DNA from: a virus
Lineage: Duplodnaviria > Heunggongvirae > Uroviricota > Caudoviricetes
Reading direction: 5' to 3' (one strand)
DNA length: 4,451 bases
IMG/VR virus record: IMGVR_UViG_2529292832_000008
Both the position numbers and the translations under genes were made by a program. Under the pieces are notes generated by a model. It ran no database searches, had not been told where the DNA came from, and saw nothing but the letters and a program-made list of their open reading frames with translations. This document shows, one piece after another, positions 1-4,451 of this stretch (within the stretch, counting starts at the first letter, position 1; each line of letters opens with the position of its first letter).

Positions 1-505
1 GGAGAAATAGGTGTTCTGTTTGCCGTTATCCGTTGTCTGTGTACGGGGAGTTCTGGCTTTCGGTGCCAGCATCTGCGCCACACCACCGAGGATCATACTG
101 GCCCCTGCCGCATACATGCCCGATACAGCCGCGCACCCAGCCAGCCCACAGGGTTCCACCATGCCACCGCAATAACGCCGCCCCCAGCACCACCTGAAAC
201 ACACCGCCACTTTTAGCTCCCGCCAGACGCGGCACGATATGGATCACGGCACCATTTGCCAGCGGCTCATTAAGACGGGCAGATAATTCGGTTTCACCTG
301 CATCACGCCCGGCAATGCGCACCTGATACCAGCCGTCATTCAGTTTCTGACGAAACGCCGGGAGCTGTGTGGCCAGCGCCCGGATGGCTTCGGCCCCCGT
401 TTTCACACGAAGGTCGATGCGGCGGCCAAATCGTTGCAAATCCCCGTAAAGGCAGATGCGTGCCATTCCCGGTGACGCCAGAGGGAGTGTGTGCGTCGCT
501 GCCAT
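1..505 (-). CDS. I: Tail assembly protein (lambda gpI-like), N-terminal ubiquitin-like domain; 3'-partial, with an apparent reading-frame discontinuity around positions 95-185 (possible pseudogene or indel error)
   Basis: Start ATG at 503-505, embedded in the 3' end of K (103-nt overlap), with a weak GAGG at 517-520. The N-terminal ~110 residues (MAATHTLPLASPGMARICLYGDLQRFGRRIDLRVKTGAEAIRAL...AKSGGVFQVVLGAA) look like a real beta-grasp/ubiquitin-like protein. The same frame then gives 49 codons rich in W/R/C/G (LLRWHGGTLWAGWVRGCIGHVCGRGQYDPRWCG...) and stops at 26-28. A different frame, open from 243 down to position 1, encodes ...GASMILGGVAQMLAPKARTPRTQTTDNGKQNTYFS, which looks like genuine conserved protein and continues off the window. 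The gene therefore probably extends past position 1 in that second frame. Confidence 0.7.
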
Positions 506-1146
506 TTGTCGGTATACCTCTCTCGTTTACTCAGTTGTTCAGGAATATGGTGCAGCAGCTCACCGTCGCCGCAGTAAATGGCGGCATGATTCGGCACCGA
601 TGAACCAAAGCAGCACAGCAGCACATCGCCAGGCTGCGCCTCTGTCAGTGGGACACGGTAAAAACCAGTCGCCTCCATATTGTCAAGATAGAGATTCTGA
701 CCGTGACGCCACCAGTCATCCCCGCGATAAAAATCCGGCATCTCAATCCCCGCCAGATGATAAGCATCCCGGAACAGTGTGTAACAGTCCGTCACACCGT
801 GCTCAAAGCGCCGCCCGGTGAGATGCGGCACACAGCGGAACTTATGAATCGTCCCCCGGCAGACCAGCCACCACGGCAAATCACTCTGCACCTGCAGCCG
901 CCGGTCGGCCTCACTCAGCCAGGGCAGACCACCGGGGTGGCTGTGGACCAGCGCCACAATCTCACCCTGCATTTCTGCCTGCAGCCAGTCTTCCGGCGAC
1001 ATACGGAAATACGCCTCCGGCTCACCGGAGATATTCGCGCAGGGGAAATATCTTTCCCCCTCCGGCGTGCTTACCACGAAGCCGCACGACTCCGCTGGCG
1101 CACATCGCCGGGCGTGCGCCAGAATCGCTGATTCTGTCTGTGTCAT
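403..1146 (-). CDS. K: Tail tip assembly protein (lambda gpK-like), two-domain JAMM/MPN metalloprotease + NlpC/P60 peptidase, 247 aa from the first ATG
   Basis: Minus-strand ORF beginning 5 nt after the L stop. Read from the translation: JAMM motif H-S-H-P-G-G-L-P-W-L-S-E-A-D (HxHx7Sx2D, residues 68-81) with an upstream glutamate in A-E-S-C-G (E20); NlpC/P60-like Cys in GVTDCYTLF (C121), His in PNHAAIY (H187), and a third polar residue in LLHHIP (H199/H200). An alternative internal start at Met49 (ATG at 1000-1002) would give a 199-aa product lacking E20. The last 103 nt overlap the start of gene I in another frame. Confidence 0.85.
   Translation of the reverse strand: MTQTESAILAHARRCAPAESCGFVVSTPEGERYFPCANISGEPEAYFRMSPEDWLQAEMQGEIVALVHSHPGGLPWLSEADRRLQVQSDLPWWLVCRGTIHKFRCVPHLTGRRFEHGVTDCYTLFRDAYHLAGIEMPDFYRGDDWWRHGQNLYLDNMEATGFYRVPLTEAQPGDVLLCCFGSSVPNHAAIYCGDGELLHHIPEQLSKRERYTDKWQRRTHSLWRHREWHASAFTGICNDLAAASTFV
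517..520 (-). promoter_or_regulatory. Weak candidate Shine-Dalgarno (GAGG) for gene I, within the K coding region
   Basis: Minus-strand sequence reads GAGGTATACCGACAAATG: GAGG is 11 nt upstream of the I ATG, which is longer than optimal spacing, so this is only a weak call. Confidence 0.3.
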
Positions 1147-1151
1147 GGGAT

Positions 1152-1850
1152 TTACTGCGAAAGTTTGTTAATGGAAAGGAAGCCGCCAAAGTTGCCGACG
1201 TTATTGCGGAACTTACAACCGCTCAGGCATTTGCTGCATTTATCCTTCGTGATATCGGACGTTGGCTGGTCATATTCATCCGCGACAGCCGGACCGCTAT
1301 AACCGCACTCGTCACCGCGATAGGTCCAGGTGCAGGTGTTGGCCAGCATGATACGTCCCGGAAAAACAGCGCCATCCGTTTCCGTCGGCGTGGACAGTAC
1401 AAAGGAGGCACTCACCGCGCTCAGTTCGCTGCACTGCTCAATGCGCCAGCGGCTGATCACCTCCTGCTCCGGATCGGCATAACTGTTTCCGTTGACGAAG
1501 TTCACCGCATCCAGAAAACGGGCGTAAACCTTACGCCGGACCACCGTTCCGCCGACCAGACTCTGCATATCTTCCGCCATCCCGGTGACCATACCGTACA
1601 GGTTAGAAACCGTCAGCGTGGGGCGCGTACTGGTGCCTTTGCCATTCAGTTCAAAACCGCTCCCCTGAATGGGATACGGCTGATACTGTCGCCCCTGCCA
1701 GGTGACCGGCTCACCTTTTTCGTTCTGCTCATTACAGAAAAAATAACGTTCTCCACCGACCTCTGTCAGGTCGATTTCCCAGAGCACCACGCTGGCCGAC
1801 TGCTCCGCACGGGTGCATTCATTCAGTGTTTCCTGCCGGATATCCTGCAT
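1152..1850 (-). CDS. L: Tail tip protein (lambda gpL-like), 232 aa, with C-terminal cysteine cluster
   Basis: 232-aa minus-strand ORF, the same length as lambda gpL. Start ATG at 1848-1850 is preceded by AGGTGGTGA (1855-1863). The C-terminal region carries clustered cysteines (C173, C182, and C-S-K-C-L-S-G-C at residues 205-212), consistent with the Fe-S-binding C-terminal domain reported for gpL-family proteins. Stop TAA at 1152-1154, 5 nt before the K start. Confidence 0.9.
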   Translation of the reverse strand: MQDIRQETLNECTRAEQSASVVLWEIDLTEVGGERYFFCNEQNEKGEPVTWQGRQYQPYPIQGSGFELNGKGTSTRPTLTVSNLYGMVTGMAEDMQSLVGGTVVRRKVYARFLDAVNFVNGNSYADPEQEVISRWRIEQCSELSAVSASFVLSTPTETDGAVFPGRIMLANTCTWTYRGDECGYSGPAVADEYDQPTSDITKDKCSKCLSGCKFRNNVGNFGGFLSINKLSQ

Positions 1851-2179
1851 CAGTTCACCACCTGTTCAAACTCTGCGCTGAACTCAACACGCAGCATACT
1901 GACCCGCGACGACCATTTTGCGCAGGTCACCTTTATCTGCCGCCACTCATAAGGCGGCGTCCACAGAAAGGATTTCCAGCCCCCGTGCTCTTCCAGAAAC
2001 GACTCCAGTACCGTGGCCTCCTCACGGGGGACAGAAAGCGTCACGCTGTACGTTTTCAGGTTGGCATTCAGCCCGGCAGGCGCTCGCTGGGAATAGCCAT
2101 CACCAAAGCGCACCTTTCTTACAGAAGGGACCGAAGCCACATCCATACCGGGTTTCACTTTCCAGCGGAAGGTCTTCAT
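1850..2179 (-). CDS. M: Minor tail / tail tip assembly protein (lambda gpM-like), 109 aa
   Basis: 109-aa minus-strand ORF (MKTFRWKVKPGMDVASVPSVRKVRFGDGYSQRAP...), the same length as lambda gpM. Start ATG at 2177-2179 overlaps the H stop (ATGA) and is preceded by a strong Shine-Dalgarno GGAGGTG at 2184-2190. Stop TGA at 1850-1852 overlaps the L start by 1 nt. Gene order matches lambda. Confidence 0.9.
   Translation of the reverse strand: MKTFRWKVKPGMDVASVPSVRKVRFGDGYSQRAPAGLNANLKTYSVTLSVPREEATVLESFLEEHGGWKSFLWTPPYEWRQIKVTCAKWSSRVSMLRVEFSAEFEQVVN
1855..1863 (-). promoter_or_regulatory. Shine-Dalgarno sequence for L (AGGTGGTGA), inside the 3' end of M
   Basis: Minus-strand sequence reads AACAGGTGGTGAACTGATG: a purine-rich SD-like element 4-8 nt upstream of the L ATG, with the M stop TGA overlapping the L ATG (TGATG). 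Confidence 0.6.
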
Positions 2180-4451
2180 CGTCCACCTCCGGAGAACAGG
2201 CCACCATCACGCATCTGTGTCTGAATTTCATCACGGGCACCCTTGCGGGCCATGTCATACACCGCCTTCAGAGCAGCCGGACCTATCTGCCCGTTCGTGC
2301 CGTCGTTGTTAATCACCACATGGTTATTCTGCTCAAACGTCCCGGACGCCTGCGACCGGCTGTCTGCCATGCCGCCCGGTGTACCGACATAACCGCCGGT
2401 GGCATAGCCGCGCATCAGCCGGTAAAGATTCCCCACGCCAATCCGGCTGGTTGCCTCCTTCGTGAAGACAAACTCACCACGGTGAACAATCCCCGCTGGC
2501 TCATATTTGCCGCCGGTTCCCGTAAATCCTCCGGTCGCAAAATGGAATTTCGCCGCAGCGGCCTGAATGGCTGTACCGCCTGACGCGGATGCTCCACCAC
2601 TGGCAGCACCGCCAATGGCGCTGCCGATACTCCCGACAATCCCCACCATTGCCTGCTTAAGCAGAATTTCTGTCATCATGGACAGCACGGAACGGGTGAA
2701 GCTGCGCCAGTTCTGCTCACTGCCGGTCAGCATCGCCGCCATATTCTGTGCAATACCATCAAAGGTCTGCGTGGCTGCACTTTTTACCTGCGACATACTG
2801 TCCGTGGCGCTCTCTTCCCACTCACTCCAGCCGGACTTCAGGCCTGCCATCCAGTTCCCGCGAAGCTGGTCTTCAGCCGCCCAGGTCTTTTTCTGCTCTG
2901 ACATGACGTTATTCAGCGCCAGCGGATTATCGCCATACTGTTCCTTCAGGCGCTGTTCCGTGGCTTCCCGTTCTGCCTGCCGGTCAGTCAGCCCCCGGCT
3001 TTTCGCATCAATGGCGGCCCGTTTTGCCCGTTGCTGCTGTGCGAATTTATCCGCCTGCTGCGCCAGCGCGTTCAGGCGCTCCTGATACGTAACCTTGTCG
3101 CCAAGTGCAGCCAGCTGGCGTTTGTACTCCAGCGTCTCATCTTTATGCGCCAGCAGGGATTTCTCCTGTGCAGACAGCTGGCGACGTTGTGCCGCCTCCT
3201 CCAGTACCGCGAACTGATTTTCAGCCTTCCACAAATCCCGGCGCTGCTGGCTGATTTTCTCATTTGCTCCGGCATGCTTCTCCAGCGTCCGGAGTTCTGC
3301 CTGAAGCGTCAGCAGGGCAGCATGAGCACTGTCTTCCTGACGATCGCCCGCAGACACCTTCACGCCGGACTGTTTCGGCTTTTTCAGCGTCGCTTCATAA
3401 TCCTTTTTCGCCGCCGCCATCAGCGTGTTGTAATCTGCCTGCAGGATTCTCCCGTCTTTCAGTGCCTTGTTCAGTTCTTCCTGACGGGCGGTATATTTCT
3501 CCAGCGGCGTCTGCAGCCGTTCGTAAGCCTTCTGCGCCTCTTCGGTATATTTCAGCCGTGATGCCTCAGACTCGGCCCAGTCCTTTGCTGCCATCTCTCT
3601 GGCCTTTTCAAGATCGGCCTGCAACGTGGCGGCTGAAAGCCCAAGTTGCGCATTCGCTCTGTCCTCCCATGCTCCCCGGAGATTGGCAAGAAATGCTGAG
3701 GTTTTACCGCGCCGGTGGCTCCGGCTCTGATACCACTGCCATTTTTTGTCCGCCTCATCAAAAGCCTTTTCTGCTTTCTCCAGCATTCCCTGGGCAGTGT
3801 CCGGGCGACCAATATCCAGCACCGAATCCCACATGGATTTGAATGCCCGTGCTGTCCTGTCTGCCCAGGTCTCCAGCGTGCCCATGTTCTCTTTCAGGCG
3901 GCGGGTCTGGTCATCAAACCCTTTCGTTGCGGCCTCGTTCGCCGCCTGCAATGCCCCGGCTTCATCTCCGGAACGCTGCAACTGAGCAACATACGCAATC
4001 TGCTCCGCCGTCACGTTATGGAACTGACGTGCCATCGCTGTCAGTCCCGACGTCGGGTCTGTGGTCAGCTTCCCGAAGGCTTCAGCGACCTTGTCCACCT
4101 CCACGCCGGATGCAGAGGAGAAACGCGCCACACTCTGGCTGATCGCCTCAAACTGCTCACCACCACGCACACCGGCATTCACCAGCGCCGTCAGTGACTC
4201 GCTGGTCTGGTTAAACGTCAGCCCTGCCGCCTGCCCGGCTCTGGACAGGACCAGCATACGATCTGCCGTCAGTCCCGCCTGATTGCCGGAAAGGACCAGC
4301 GTTTTGTTGAAATCGGACAGGGTTGAGTTGCCCTGATACCAGGCATACGCCAGCGCCCCGGTCGCCACCGCCAGCGAGGTGGCCCCCACCATCGGCAGGG
4401 TGATCGCACCGGCAAGCCCCCGGAACATGGGGATCATCCCGCCGAAGGAGT
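2176..4451 (-). CDS. H: Tail tape measure protein (lambda gpH-like), 5'-partial; N-terminus lies beyond the window end
   Basis: Single long minus-strand ORF. The track starts it at Met 4437, but the frame is open to position 4451 (codons upstream read ...S-F-G-G before MIPMFRG), so the real start is outside the window. The translation has a charged, coiled-coil-like central region (e.g. RLKYTEEAQKAYERLQTPLEKYTARQEELNKALKDG, QQRRDLWKAENQFAVLEEAAQRRQL) and a Gly-rich hydrophobic segment near the C-terminus (AMVGIVGSIGSAIGGAASGGASASGG, about 2560-2652), as expected for a lambda-type tape measure. Its TGA stop (2176-2178) overlaps the ATG of the next gene (ATGA). Position directly upstream of M-L-K-I matches lambda gene order. 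Confidence 0.9.
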   Translation of the reverse strand, partial: SFGGMIPMFRGLAGAITLPMVGATSLAVATGALAYAWYQGNSTLSDFNKTLVLSGNQAGLTADRMLVLSRAGQAAGLTFNQTSESLTALVNAGVRGGEQFEAISQSVARFSSASGVEVDKVAEAFGKLTTDPTSGLTAMARQFHNVTAEQIAYVAQLQRSGDEAGALQAANEAATKGFDDQTRRLKENMGTLETWADRTARAFKSMWDSVLDIGRPDTAQGMLEKAEKAFDEADKKWQWYQSRSHRRGKTSAFLANLRGAWEDRANAQLGLSAATLQADLEKAREMAAKDWAESEASRLKYTEEAQKAYERLQTPLEKYTARQEELNKALKDGRILQADYNTLMAAAKKDYEATLKKPKQSGVKVSAGDRQEDSAHAALLTLQAELRTLEKHAGANEKISQQRRDLWKAENQFAVLEEAAQRRQLSAQEKSLLAHKDETLEYKRQLAALGDKVTYQERLNALAQQADKFAQQQRAKRAAIDAKSRGLTDRQAEREATEQRLKEQYGDNPLALNNVMSEQKKTWAAEDQLRGNWMAGLKSGWSEWEESATDSMSQVKSAATQTFDGIAQNMAAMLTGSEQNWRSFTRSVLSMMTEILLKQAMVGIVGSIGSAIGGAASGGASASGGTAIQAAAAKFHFATGGFTGTGGKYEPAGIVHRGEFVFTKEATSRIGVGNLYRLMRGYATGGYVGTPGGMADSRSQASGTFEQNNHVVINNDGTNGQIGPAALKAVYDMARKGARDEIQTQMRDGGLFSGGGR
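2184..2190 (-). promoter_or_regulatory. Shine-Dalgarno sequence for M (GGAGGTG), inside the 3' end of H
   Basis: Minus-strand sequence reads TCTCCGGAGGTGGACGATGA: GGAGGTG sits 4 nt upstream of the M ATG, which overlaps the H TGA stop. Classic translational coupling. Confidence 0.7.

What the first reader, a model, noticed from the sequence alone, without database searches (positions are those of the whole stretch)
403..505. 103-nt dual-coding overlap between the K C-terminus and the I N-terminus
Seen in sequence: the I start codon (503-505) lies 103 nt upstream of the K stop (403-405), in a different frame. This stretch therefore encodes both the last 34 residues of K (...WQRRTHSLWRHREWHASAFTGICNDLAAASTFV) and the first 34 residues of the ubiquitin-like domain of I. 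Such a long overlap constrains both proteins and suggests coupled or ratio-controlled translation of the pair. The overlap length matches what I recall for lambda, which would imply it is conserved, but that is from memory.
Basis: partly seen in the sequence, partly recalled or inferred. Interest (0 to 1): 0.35.

Follow-up and report, generated by a model that had tools for sequence, protein, structure and literature searches.

The report
Lambda K/I tail-gene overlap, re-found
The 103-base overlap between tail genes K and I is real and kept by selection on both proteins, but it is already part of the standard phage lambda annotation and is not needed in more distant relatives, so it is an ordinary, known feature.

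Summary
On the minus strand K (403-1146) ends at TGA 405-403 and an I-frame ATG lies at 505-503, two bases out of phase. The phage lambda reference has the same 103-nt overlap (K 14276..14875, I 14773..15444).

Public annotations disagree on the I start: ATG505, ATG466, TTG439 and GTG406 are all used, and this contig's own record uses GTG406. TTG and GTG are ruled out because they would delete strands beta1 and beta2 of the MoaD-like beta-grasp. ATG505 is favoured because it has the only strong Shine-Dalgarno site, and sister clades carry CTG or TTG Leu at position 14.

Selection changes hands inside the overlap:
- I residues 1-12 ride on the conserved last NlpC/P60 strand of K.
- From about residue 13, common variants are silent in I and alter K.
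- A core (I YGDLQRFG / K FTGIxNDL) has frozen silent sites in both frames.

The K tail is also kept in two lineages that lack the overlap. Distant relatives overlap by 4-26 nt or not at all, so the overlap is dispensable. Termination-reinitiation coupling and frameshift fusion are not supported. K cleaving I is already reported. Low novelty.

The parts
403..1146 (-). Gene K, tail-tip assembly peptidase, 247 aa. Prok-JAB domain at residues 3-104, NlpC/P60 at 111-224, then a C-terminal tail at 226-247.
   Evidence: ORF. Pfam: PF14464 E=3.7e-14, PF00877 E=1.3e-12. The AF2 model matches Rpn11, CSN5 and PfJAMM1, and cell-wall hydrolases. The JAMM motif HSHPGGLPWLSEAD and the NlpC Cys121/His187 are visible in the sequence.
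26..505 (-). Gene I as an open frame, 159 aa here. MoaD-like beta-grasp at residues 14-97. The frame is lost after about residue 111 because of two 1-nt deletions, so the C-terminal plug domain is not encoded in frame.
   Evidence: Pfam PF06805 E=8e-25. The AF2 model's best PDB matches are MoaD and SAMP1. Deletions relative to nearest relatives.
403..505 (-). The 103-nt K/I dual-coding stretch reported in the finding.
   Evidence: Same length as in lambda NC_001416.
517..524 (-). Shine-Dalgarno site GAGAGAGG for I, embedded in K codons Arg-Glu-Arg. By the duplex model the paired stretch ends 9 nt before ATG505; the GAGG core ends at 517, 11 nt before it.
   Evidence: Anti-SD duplex -9.3 kcal/mol, within the top ~6% of positions in the window. 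Present in all clades that keep ATG1 and absent in clades that start at the Met14 equivalent.
467..505 (-). Region A: I residues 1-13 (MAATHTLPLASPG, variable, predicted disordered) over K residues 215-227, which include the last NlpC/P60 strand (THSLWRH).
   Evidence: Over I residues 1-12: 0 of 11 K2/I3 sites vary, against 9 of 12 K3/I1 sites. 11 alleles are silent in K and change I, against 1 of the reverse kind. pLDDT is below 50 for I residues 1-11. K strand 219-225 has pLDDT about 80-85.
406..466 (-). Region B: I residues 14-34 (beta1 at 14-19, beta2 at 29-33) over the K tail, residues 228-247 (predicted helix 230-245).
   Evidence: The common polymorphisms are silent in I and change K: 13 alleles carried by 103 sequence counts. 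12 of 22 K2/I3 sites vary. Secondary structure.
425..448 (-). Doubly constrained core: I Y20-G27 (YGDLQRFG) read together with K F233-L240 (FTGICNDL).
   Evidence: In 13 deep representatives the I codons D22 GAT, Q24 CAA and R25 CGA, and the K codons T234 ACG, N238 AAC and D239 GAT, never vary. Single-codon columns: 3 of 10 against 0 of 30 outside for I (p=0.012); 3 of 6 against 1 of 85 upstream for K (p=0.0006).
464..466 (-). Alternative I start, ATG (Met14). It gives a 64-nt overlap and is the start position typical of distant I homologues.
   Evidence: It has no SD here (-1.5 kcal/mol). It is the only possible start in L038, L040, L133 and mEp515, which have an in-frame stop upstream and a GGAGG/GGAGA site before it.
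404..439 (-). Downstream starts used by public annotation: TTG 439-437 (PGAP, 37-nt overlap) and GTG 406-404 (this contig's own record and SPF_0923, 4-nt overlap). Rejected here.
   Evidence: Both would remove beta1, and GTG would also remove beta2. Neither is conserved in diverged relatives. Both have weak or absent SD sites.

Best explanation
This is the known out-of-phase overlap of the lambda tail-tip genes K and I, carried here by a lambda-like prophage contig.

K is a non-structural JAB + NlpC/P60 peptidase. I is its substrate: an N-terminal MoaD/ubiquitin-like beta-grasp joined by a Gly-rich linker to the plug domain that stays in the virion.

In lambda's clade K carries a C-terminal tail of about 20 residues (predicted helix, motif F-x-G-I-x-N-D-L). 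Its codons are read in the +2 frame as strands beta1-beta2 of I.

Inferred: I is translated by independent internal initiation at ATG 505-503, from a strong Shine-Dalgarno site (GAGAGAGG, 524-517) that is itself written in K codons Arg-Glu-Arg. It is not made by reinitiation after K terminates.

Shown by comparison, selection is partitioned along the overlap:
- The first ~36 nt are governed by K (last strand of the NlpC/P60 core), and I merely gains a variable, disordered 13-residue leader.
- The rest is governed mainly by I.
- A central core of ~24 nt is constrained in both frames.

The I start has moved during evolution between two sites (ATG1 and the Met14 equivalent). Each site has an SD created by synonymous Arg codon choice in K.

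The long overlap is a lineage feature that packs an enzyme-substrate pair tightly. It is not required for function, because relatives have 4-26 nt overlaps or separated genes.
For: Geometry and lambda identity.

Domains and folds.

Start site:
- SD energies are ATG505 -9.3, ATG466 -1.5, TTG439 -4.5 (spacing 2) and GTG406 +0.4 kcal/mol.
- Clades with CTG or TTG Leu at position 14 keep ATG1 plus GAGAGG or GAGGAG. Clades with a stop between the two sites have TGG-AGG/AGA (GGAGG) 9-10 nt before the Met14 ATG and no ATG1.
- beta1 (14-19) and beta2 (29-33) lie upstream of TTG/GTG.

Dual constraint:
- Variable wobble sites are 35/46 in K-only sequence and 63/70 in I-only sequence, against 19/34 (K3) and 12/33 (I3) in the overlap. 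For I3, p=3e-8.
- The handover is significant at p=0.002.
- Frozen codons in the core.

The K tail is a real protein element:
- The motif persists in K homologues of 36-50% identity.
- It persists in the L224-L233 clade, where I overlaps K by only 4 nt and the I frame over the tail is closed by stops.
- It persists in Mannheimia phage 535AP2, where I lies 268 nt downstream.

Dispensability of the overlap.

The region is not structured (z +1.1). No Rfam family, promoter or terminator signal was found there.

Function of the pair: predicted by Iyer et al. 2006 (PMC1779556). Cleavage of the gpI ubiquitin-like domain by gpK was reported by the Davidson laboratory (PMC12908700). Only gpI residues 134/135-223 are seen in virions and gpK is absent from them (PMC10721106, PMC12617516).
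Against: - There is no direct evidence here or in the papers read for the N-terminus of gpI. The virion mass spectrometry found one gpI peptide, 9.9% coverage.
- Distant I proteins start 5-10 residues before the (L/F)YG motif, which corresponds to Met14. The 13-residue leader from ATG505 is variable and predicted disordered, so it could be untranslated in lambda-type phages.
- The SD before ATG505 is partly a by-product of the conserved K peptide K-R-E-R-Y.
- In this contig I is frameshifted downstream, so the gene may not be functional here.
- The sample is dominated by enterobacterial prophages. The polymorphism counts treat sites rather than independent events, and the deep test rests on only 6-10 columns.
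- Both AF2 models have modest confidence (pLDDT 72 and 63). The K tail helix scores 62, falling to 40.
Confidence: 0.7

Rival explanations
1. I starts at ATG 466-464 (Met14), the position typical of the family. The true overlap is then 64 nt, and the upstream 39 nt of open frame with its ATG are a by-product of K's conserved sequence (AAA-TGG for Lys-Trp).
For: All distant I homologues begin 5-10 residues before the (L/F)YG motif. L038, L040, L133 and mEp515 must start there, because an in-frame stop lies upstream. Residues 1-11 are disordered in the model and evolve as K-synonymous changes. 13 of the 120 public clusters are annotated this way.
Against: In lambda-type sequences the Met14 ATG has no SD (-1.5 kcal/mol): K uses TGG-CGT where Met14-users have TGG-AGG/AGA. 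The Stx-type, L134 and L047 clades have CTG, and L145 has TTG, at this codon, yet all keep ATG1 with an SD, often with a stop just before it. ATG1 is invariant in all lambda-clade junctions sampled.
Confidence: 0.2
2. I starts at TTG 439-437 or GTG 406-404, as in PGAP and in this contig's own record. K and I would then overlap by only 37 or 4 nt, and the '103-nt overlap' would be an annotation artefact.
For: GTGA at the K stop is a classic 4-nt junction. 30 (GTG) and 15 (TTG) of the 120 public clusters use these starts.
Against: These starts would delete beta1, and GTG also beta2, of a beta-grasp that is conserved in every homologue and covered by Pfam from residue 14. Upstream of them the common variants are I-synonymous, so the I frame is under selection there. 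Neither codon is conserved in diverged relatives, and SD sites are absent or misplaced.
Confidence: 0.03
3. The overlap serves a programmed -1 ribosomal frameshift that makes a K-I fusion, as with lambda G/GT, setting a fixed K:K-I ratio.
For: The I frame is the -1 frame of K. K-I fusion proteins (PF00877 + PF06805) exist in databases, and Iyer et al. mention fused forms.
Against: I read the K-frame codons of the overlap (sequence) and found no X_XXY_YYZ slippery heptamer. There is no stable downstream structure. The fusion proteins are clusters of one to a few member sequences whose K-to-I junctions fall at different places (T219, W223, N238/D239, S244 and others), as expected from sporadic indels or deletions.
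Confidence: 0.02
4. The overlap couples I translation to K translation: ribosomes translating or terminating K are needed to start I.
For: In distant relatives the I ATG sits 4-10 nt from the K stop, a geometry compatible with reinitiation. K and I are an enzyme-substrate pair.
Against: Here the start is 103 nt (or 64 nt) upstream of the K stop. I has a strong SD of its own, whereas K has none and follows the L stop by 5 nt, so K is probably the weakly translated partner. The RBS region is not sequestered in structure.
Confidence: 0.07

Closest known systems
Phage lambda genes K and I (NC_001416: K 14276..14875, I 14773..15444)
   Same: Same gene order (H-M-L-K-I), same frame relation and the same 103-nt overlap. 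DNA identity across the junction is about 96%, and I residues 1-34 are identical.
   Different: The window's K is annotated full length (247 aa); the lambda reference lacks one G and calls only 199 aa. The window's I carries two 1-nt deletions and is truncated. K-tail residues 227, 229, 237 and 241 differ (E/A, H/R, C/Y, A/V).
TAPK/TAPI system of Iyer, Burroughs and Aravind 2006: a JAB + NlpC/P60 peptidase next to a MoaD-like ubiquitin-fold tail assembly protein. gpK cleavage of gpI was reported by the Davidson laboratory in 2025.
   Same: Same domain architectures and adjacency. A Gly-Gly pair (KSGG, residues 99-102) lies at the end of the beta-grasp.
   Different: In the passages I read (term searches), neither source mentions the coding overlap. 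Many members of the system have only 4-26 nt overlaps or separated genes.
Classical long out-of-phase overlaps in phage genomes. From general knowledge, not tested here: phiX174 A/B and D/E, and MS2 lysis/coat.
   Same: Two proteins are read from one stretch in different frames, silent-site variation is depressed, and selection is divided between the frames.
   Different: Here only the termini overlap (33-34 codons). Both partners are old, widely conserved families, and the overlap has been lost or was never gained in related lineages.
Short 4-10 nt start/stop overlaps (ATGA-type) of K and I in Dhillonvirus, Tlsvirus, mEp043, SBP2phi2 and the L224 clade
   Same: Same two genes in the same order.
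   Different: Those geometries allow termination-reinitiation. In the window the I start is 103 nt inside K and has its own SD.

Membership tests
Lambda gpK-type tail-tip assembly peptidase (Prok-JAB + NlpC/P60) | N-terminal JAB/MPN+ domain with the JAMM motif (E ... HxH x7 S xx D) | tested here: met
   PF14464 E=3.7e-14 over residues 3-104. AESCG and HSHPGGLPWLSEAD are visible in the translation. The model matches Rpn11, CSN5 and PfJAMM1.
Lambda gpK-type tail-tip assembly peptidase (Prok-JAB + NlpC/P60) | C-terminal NlpC/P60 papain-like domain with catalytic Cys and His | tested here: met
   PF00877 E=1.3e-12 over residues 111-224, covering the full profile. D120-C121 and N186-H187 are invariant in alignments.
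Lambda gpK-type tail-tip assembly peptidase (Prok-JAB + NlpC/P60) | Encoded between L and I in a lambda-type tail module | tested here: met
   ORF order H, M, L, K, I on the minus strand. The same order is annotated in lambda and relatives.
Lambda gpK-type tail-tip assembly peptidase (Prok-JAB + NlpC/P60) | Cleaves the ubiquitin-like domain off gpI during tip assembly | not testable with these tools
   Known only from a conference report for lambda (PMC12908700) and from the 2006 prediction.
Lambda gpI (PF06805 Lambda_tail_I; MoaD/ThiS-like beta-grasp + plug domain) | N-terminal beta-grasp domain | tested here: met
   PF06805 E=8e-25 over residues 14-97. The top PDB matches of the AF2 model are MoaD, SAMP1 and CysO (TM 0.62-0.72 normalised to target).
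Lambda gpI (PF06805 Lambda_tail_I; MoaD/ThiS-like beta-grasp + plug domain) | Conserved Gly at the C-terminal end of the beta-grasp, followed by a Gly/Ala-rich linker | tested here: met
   AGAKSGGVFQVVLGAA at residues 94-110. G96, A97 and G101 are invariant.
Lambda gpI (PF06805 Lambda_tail_I; MoaD/ThiS-like beta-grasp + plug domain) | Intact C-terminal plug domain (lambda residues 134-223, the part seen in virions) | tested here: not met
   Two 1-nt deletions shift the frame after about residue 111, and the ORF ends at 159 aa with an unrelated tail. The window also ends before the gene would.
Functional out-of-phase overlapping gene pair | Both frames open, and the frame relation conserved across diverged relatives | tested here: met
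   I = K+2 in all 72 unique long-tail junctions that have a domain overlap of at least 40 nt, down to about 45-55% K identity.
Functional out-of-phase overlapping gene pair | Reduced synonymous variation in both frames compared with flanking single-coding sequence | tested here: met
   The K3 reduction alone is weak (p=0.09). The I3 reduction is strong (p=3e-8). Frozen codons in the core: p=0.012 and p=0.0006.
Functional out-of-phase overlapping gene pair | Both products actually translated through the shared stretch | not testable with these tools
   The N-terminus of gpI is not determined in the papers read.
Termination-reinitiation (translationally coupled) gene pair | Downstream start codon within a few nucleotides of the upstream stop | tested here: not met
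   The start is 103 nt (or 64 nt) upstream of the K stop. I has an independent strong SD.
Programmed -1 frameshift pair (lambda G/GT type) | Slippery heptamer X_XXY_YYZ in the upstream frame inside the overlap, usually with a downstream structure | tested here: not met
   No heptamer found when I read the K-frame codons by eye (sequence). Folding z-score +1.1. Fusion junctions are scattered.

The most novel reading that the evidence does not exclude
The C-terminal helix of K may have been born by overprinting: an ancestral K lost its stop and read into the 5' end of I in the +1 frame. The new tail acquired a function (motif F-x-G-I-x-N-D-L), creating the doubly constrained core. In at least two lineages (Mannheimia 535AP2 and the L224 clade) the conflict was later resolved by duplicating the shared segment, so each copy kept one frame. 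The Mannheimia K tail still reads 'VRF*RHIE*Y' in the old I frame, against 'VRFYGDLQRY' in the overlapping relative L038. In parallel, the I start hopped between two sites whose SDs are toggled by synonymous Arg codons in K. Lambda-type phages, which keep both ATGs, might make two gpI isoforms.
Probability: 0.3. Interest if true: 0.4.

Novelty: already known. Interest (0 to 1): 0.15.

Why it matters
It matters little for discovery. The overlap is part of lambda's reference annotation, and the K-I enzyme-substrate relation is already predicted and reported.

The practical value lies in annotation:
- Public records use at least six different starts for I. At least 45 of the 120 clusters examined (the TTG and GTG classes) begin at codons that would delete part of the ubiquitin-like fold.
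- The lambda reference appears to lack one base, which hides most of K's JAB domain.

The locus is also a clean small example of how selection is divided along an overlap, and of start-codon migration controlled by synonymous codons in the other frame. It could be used to plan silent mutations for studies of gpK/gpI.

Tried and rejected
- -1 frameshift K-I fusion: no slippery site, no structure, and database fusions have scattered junctions.
- RNA element in the overlap: the fold is no better than shuffles (z +1.1), and Rfam gives no hit in the window.
- Promoter or terminator inside the overlap: none found. Counts over 1-1300 are at the shuffle expectation.
- Downstream starts TTG439 and GTG406: rejected on fold, conservation and SD grounds.
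- Strict invariant-column test of silent sites: too few columns. Replaced by a test on columns where one residue is held by at least 70% of sequences.
The single-protein scan with P0168 found nothing.
- Literature search for a determined gpI N-terminus, or for lambda ribosome-profiling data on K and I: nothing usable.
- Using the decayed I-like frame in the Mannheimia and L224 K tails to decide the direction of evolution: inconclusive. The K motif N-D-[LF] (AAC GAT TTN) automatically yields [QE]-R-F in the other frame.

Full report
WHAT IS THERE. The window is the minus-strand tail module of a lambda-like prophage. It holds H (2176-4437, cut by the window end), M (1850-2179), L (1152-1850), K (403-1146) and the first part of I (26-505). 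It is 95-96% identical to lambda and to many lambdoid phages, and 4422 of 5426 complete E. coli genomes have a match to the window. Protein P0344 is exactly the window's I ORF read from GTG406, and it comes from a 4451-nt contig of E. coli 2749250. The window is therefore very probably that contig.

THE OBSERVATION. K stops at TGA 405-403 and an I-frame ATG lies at 505-503, so the shared stretch is 403-505, 103 nt. I is read in the K frame +2, which makes K codon position 3 equal to I position 1 and K position 2 equal to I position 3. Lambda's reference record has K 14276..14875 and I 14773..15444, the same 103 nt. Two details need correcting. The stretch holds 33 K codons plus the stop, not 34 residues. 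I residues 1-13 precede the Pfam domain (14-97).

WHICH START? Four in-frame candidates exist: ATG505 (residue 1), ATG466 (residue 14), TTG439 (residue 23) and GTG406 (residue 34). Annotators use all of them. Lambda uses ATG1. PGAP and PhiR47_1 use TTG, giving a 37-nt overlap. SPF_0923 and this contig's own record use GTG, giving a 4-nt overlap. Among the best 120 public clusters, 49 start at ATG1, 30 at GTG, 15 at TTG, 13 at Met14, and a few at other codons.

The AF2 model of I(1-110) has mean pLDDT 63. Residues 1-11 are disordered, beta1 lies at 14-19, beta2 at 29-33 and helix alpha1 at 37-47. Its best PDB matches are MoaD and SAMP1. TTG or GTG starts would therefore delete beta1, and GTG also beta2. 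Neither codon is conserved in diverged relatives.

Anti-SD duplex energies are -9.3 kcal/mol for ATG505 (GAGAGAGG at 524-517), -1.5 for ATG466, -4.5 for TTG439 (spacing 2) and +0.4 for GTG406.

Comparison settles most of the rest:
- The Stx-type, L134 and L047 clades have CTG Leu, and L145 has TTG Leu, at position 14. All keep ATG1 with GAGAGG or GAGGAG 10-12 nt upstream, often with a stop just before the ATG.
- L038, L040, L133 and mEp515 have a stop between the two sites. They have no ATG1 and no SD there, and instead carry TGG-AGG/AGA (GGAGG or GGAGA) 9-10 nt before the Met14 ATG.
- Lambda-type sequences write that Trp-Arg as TGG-CGT, which gives no SD.

The start has thus migrated between two positions, and the SD of each is set by synonymous Arg codons in K. 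In this window ATG505 is favoured. Met14 cannot be excluded without protein data, because distant I proteins all begin 5-10 residues before the (L/F)YG motif.

IS THE OVERLAP UNDER DUAL CONSTRAINT? I compared 74 unique lambda-clade junctions. In K-only sequence, wobble sites vary at 35/46 (K1 12/47, K2 1/47). In I-only sequence, I3 varies at 63/70. Inside the overlap, K3/I1 varies at 19/34, K2/I3 at 12/33 and K1/I2 at 10/33. The reduction for I3 has p=3e-8; for K3 it is only p=0.09.

The pattern is not uniform:
- Over I residues 1-12 (K 215-225, i.e. helix 213-218 and the last NlpC/P60 strand 219-225, pLDDT about 80-85), 0/11 K2/I3 sites vary against 9/12 K3/I1 sites. Eleven alleles are silent in K and change I, against one of the reverse kind.
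- Over I residues 13-34 (the K tail 226-247), 12/22 K2/I3 sites vary. The common polymorphisms (13 alleles, 103 sequence counts) are silent in I and change K: E/A227, H/R229, C/Y237, A/V241.
- The handover has p=0.002.

I then took 13 deep representatives, with K identity down to about 54%. Among columns where one residue is held by at least 70% of sequences, none of 30 I columns outside the overlap uses a single codon, against 3 of 10 inside (D22 GAT, Q24 CAA, R25 CGA; p=0.012). For K, 1 of 85 upstream columns uses a single codon, against 3 of 6 in the tail (T234 ACG, N238 AAC, D239 GAT; p=0.0006). The core at 425-448 (I YGDLQRFG over K FTGICNDL) is therefore constrained in both frames.

IS THE K TAIL A REAL PROTEIN ELEMENT? 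Yes, with moderate confidence.
- Distant K homologues fall into two types. Short-tail proteins end 4-12 residues after the R-H motif. Long-tail proteins (HS[IV]WRH plus about 20 residues, with [AG]-[IL]-x-N-D-[LFM]) reach 36-43% identity to the window's K.
- In the L224-L233 clade the long tail (…AMMQALENDFIHMEQA*) is present, yet I (MITVCLYGG…) overlaps K by only 4 nt, and the I frame over the tail is closed by stops.
- In Mannheimia phage 535AP2 (K 52% identical) a terminator and a small ORF separate K from I by 268 nt. The tail is still kept (…LDFDGILNDIAVNN*). Its +2 frame reads GG*VRF*RHIE*Y, which resembles a decayed I N-terminus.
- AF2 predicts the tail as a helix at 230-245, but with low confidence.

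IS THE LONG OVERLAP NECESSARY? No. Annotated K/I overlaps are 8-10 nt in SBP2phi2, Pappous, SO-1, mEp043, Tls and EP23; 26 nt in KP1801; and 58 nt in mEp515. The genes are separated in Mcat8 (65 nt), mEpX1 (321 nt, with an inserted ORF and a terminator), CF183a (about 750 nt) and 535AP2. In my sample of unique junctions, 72 long-tail K genes overlap the conserved I domain by at least 40 nt, 4 by about 4 nt, and 2 are separated. Most short-tail K genes overlap it by 0-14 nt or are separated. The sample is biased towards enterobacterial prophages.

MECHANISM. Shown: two conserved proteins share 64-103 nt out of phase, with selection partitioned along the stretch. Inferred: I is initiated independently at an SD inside K. 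K itself has no SD (+0.7 kcal/mol) and starts 5 nt after the L stop, which suggests low-level reinitiation, in keeping with a non-structural enzyme (gpK is absent from virions). The RBS region is not structured (z +1.1). Termination-reinitiation coupling is geometrically impossible at 103 nt. A -1 frameshift fusion is not supported: I found no slippery heptamer on reading the K-frame codons (sequence), and the database K-I fusions are clusters of one to a few sequences with junctions at different places.

WHAT IS KNOWN. Iyer, Burroughs and Aravind (2006) identified TAPI as a MoaD-like ubiquitin fold and TAPK as JAB + NlpC/P60, and predicted cleavage at the C-terminal Gly. Cryo-EM shows only gpI residues 134/135-223 in virions. 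[quoted passage not shown] PDB holds gpI in 8iyk and related entries, and has no K structure beyond a JAB-like match.

VERDICT. The finding rediscovers a documented lambda feature. The suggested translational coupling is unsupported, and the overlap is dispensable in relatives. Novelty: already known. Interest is low. The by-products (annotation errors, start migration, possible overprinting origin) are of modest interest.

Noticed in passing
window 26-505 (-), deletions at about 173/174 and 133/134: Gene I carries two single-base deletions relative to its nearest relatives ('GCGTT-ATTGC' and 'GGGTG-CGCGG'). The frame is lost after about residue 111 and the ORF ends at 159 aa with an unrelated tail, so the plug domain found in virions is not encoded. 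This is either a pseudogene or a draft-assembly error.
   Followed up: partly
L001 (NC_001416) about 1268 of the locus, record about 14267; window equivalent about 858: The lambda reference lacks one G (GGAGGC-TATTTCC). That G is present in six independent lambda-identical contigs and in 107 loci. This explains why lambda K is annotated as 199 aa without most of its JAB domain. The real K is probably 247 aa.
   Followed up: partly
window 1144-1154 (-): The K ATG (1146-1144) has no Shine-Dalgarno site (+0.7 kcal/mol) and lies 5 nt after the L stop TAA (1154-1152). K is probably made at a low level by reinitiation, unlike I, M and L, which have strong sites.
   Followed up: no
public protein clusters P0269-P0388: Annotated starts of I are inconsistent: ATG1 49, GTG34 30, TTG23 15, Met14 13, plus 'MCLYG' and 'MDLRV' forms. 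At least 45 of the 120 clusters (the TTG and GTG classes) begin inside the beta-grasp.
   Followed up: yes
L007-L020, L027-L031, L035, L042-L046, L050-L051: Many GTDB 'species representative' assemblies of unrelated taxa hold lambda-like sequence, in several cases on ~48-kb low-coverage contigs. Examples are Pseudomonas, Shewanella, Bradyrhizobium, Paenibacillus, Streptomyces and Collinsella. It looks like laboratory lambda DNA contamination.
   Followed up: no
L210 1930-2197; L217 1903-2223; L216 1954-2703: In Mannheimia 535AP2, mEpX1 and Pseudomonas CF183a, small ORFs are inserted between K and I. In 535AP2 and mEpX1 they come with annotated rho-independent terminators. These are moron-like insertions at exactly the junction that overlaps in lambda.
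   Followed up: no
P0014, P0023, P0065, P0075, P0094, P0110, P0115, P0280: K-I fusion proteins occur in databases as clusters of one to a few sequences. Each has a different junction inside or near the overlap. They are consistent with sporadic indels or deletions in prophages or with sequencing errors.
   Followed up: yes
window 425-448 (-): The doubly constrained core holds the hexamer GATTTG twice, 9 nt apart (GGGGATTTGCAACGATTTGG). It encodes I Asp-Leu and then part of Arg-Phe-Gly, and in K Ile-Cys and then Asp-Leu. Its significance is unknown.
   Followed up: no
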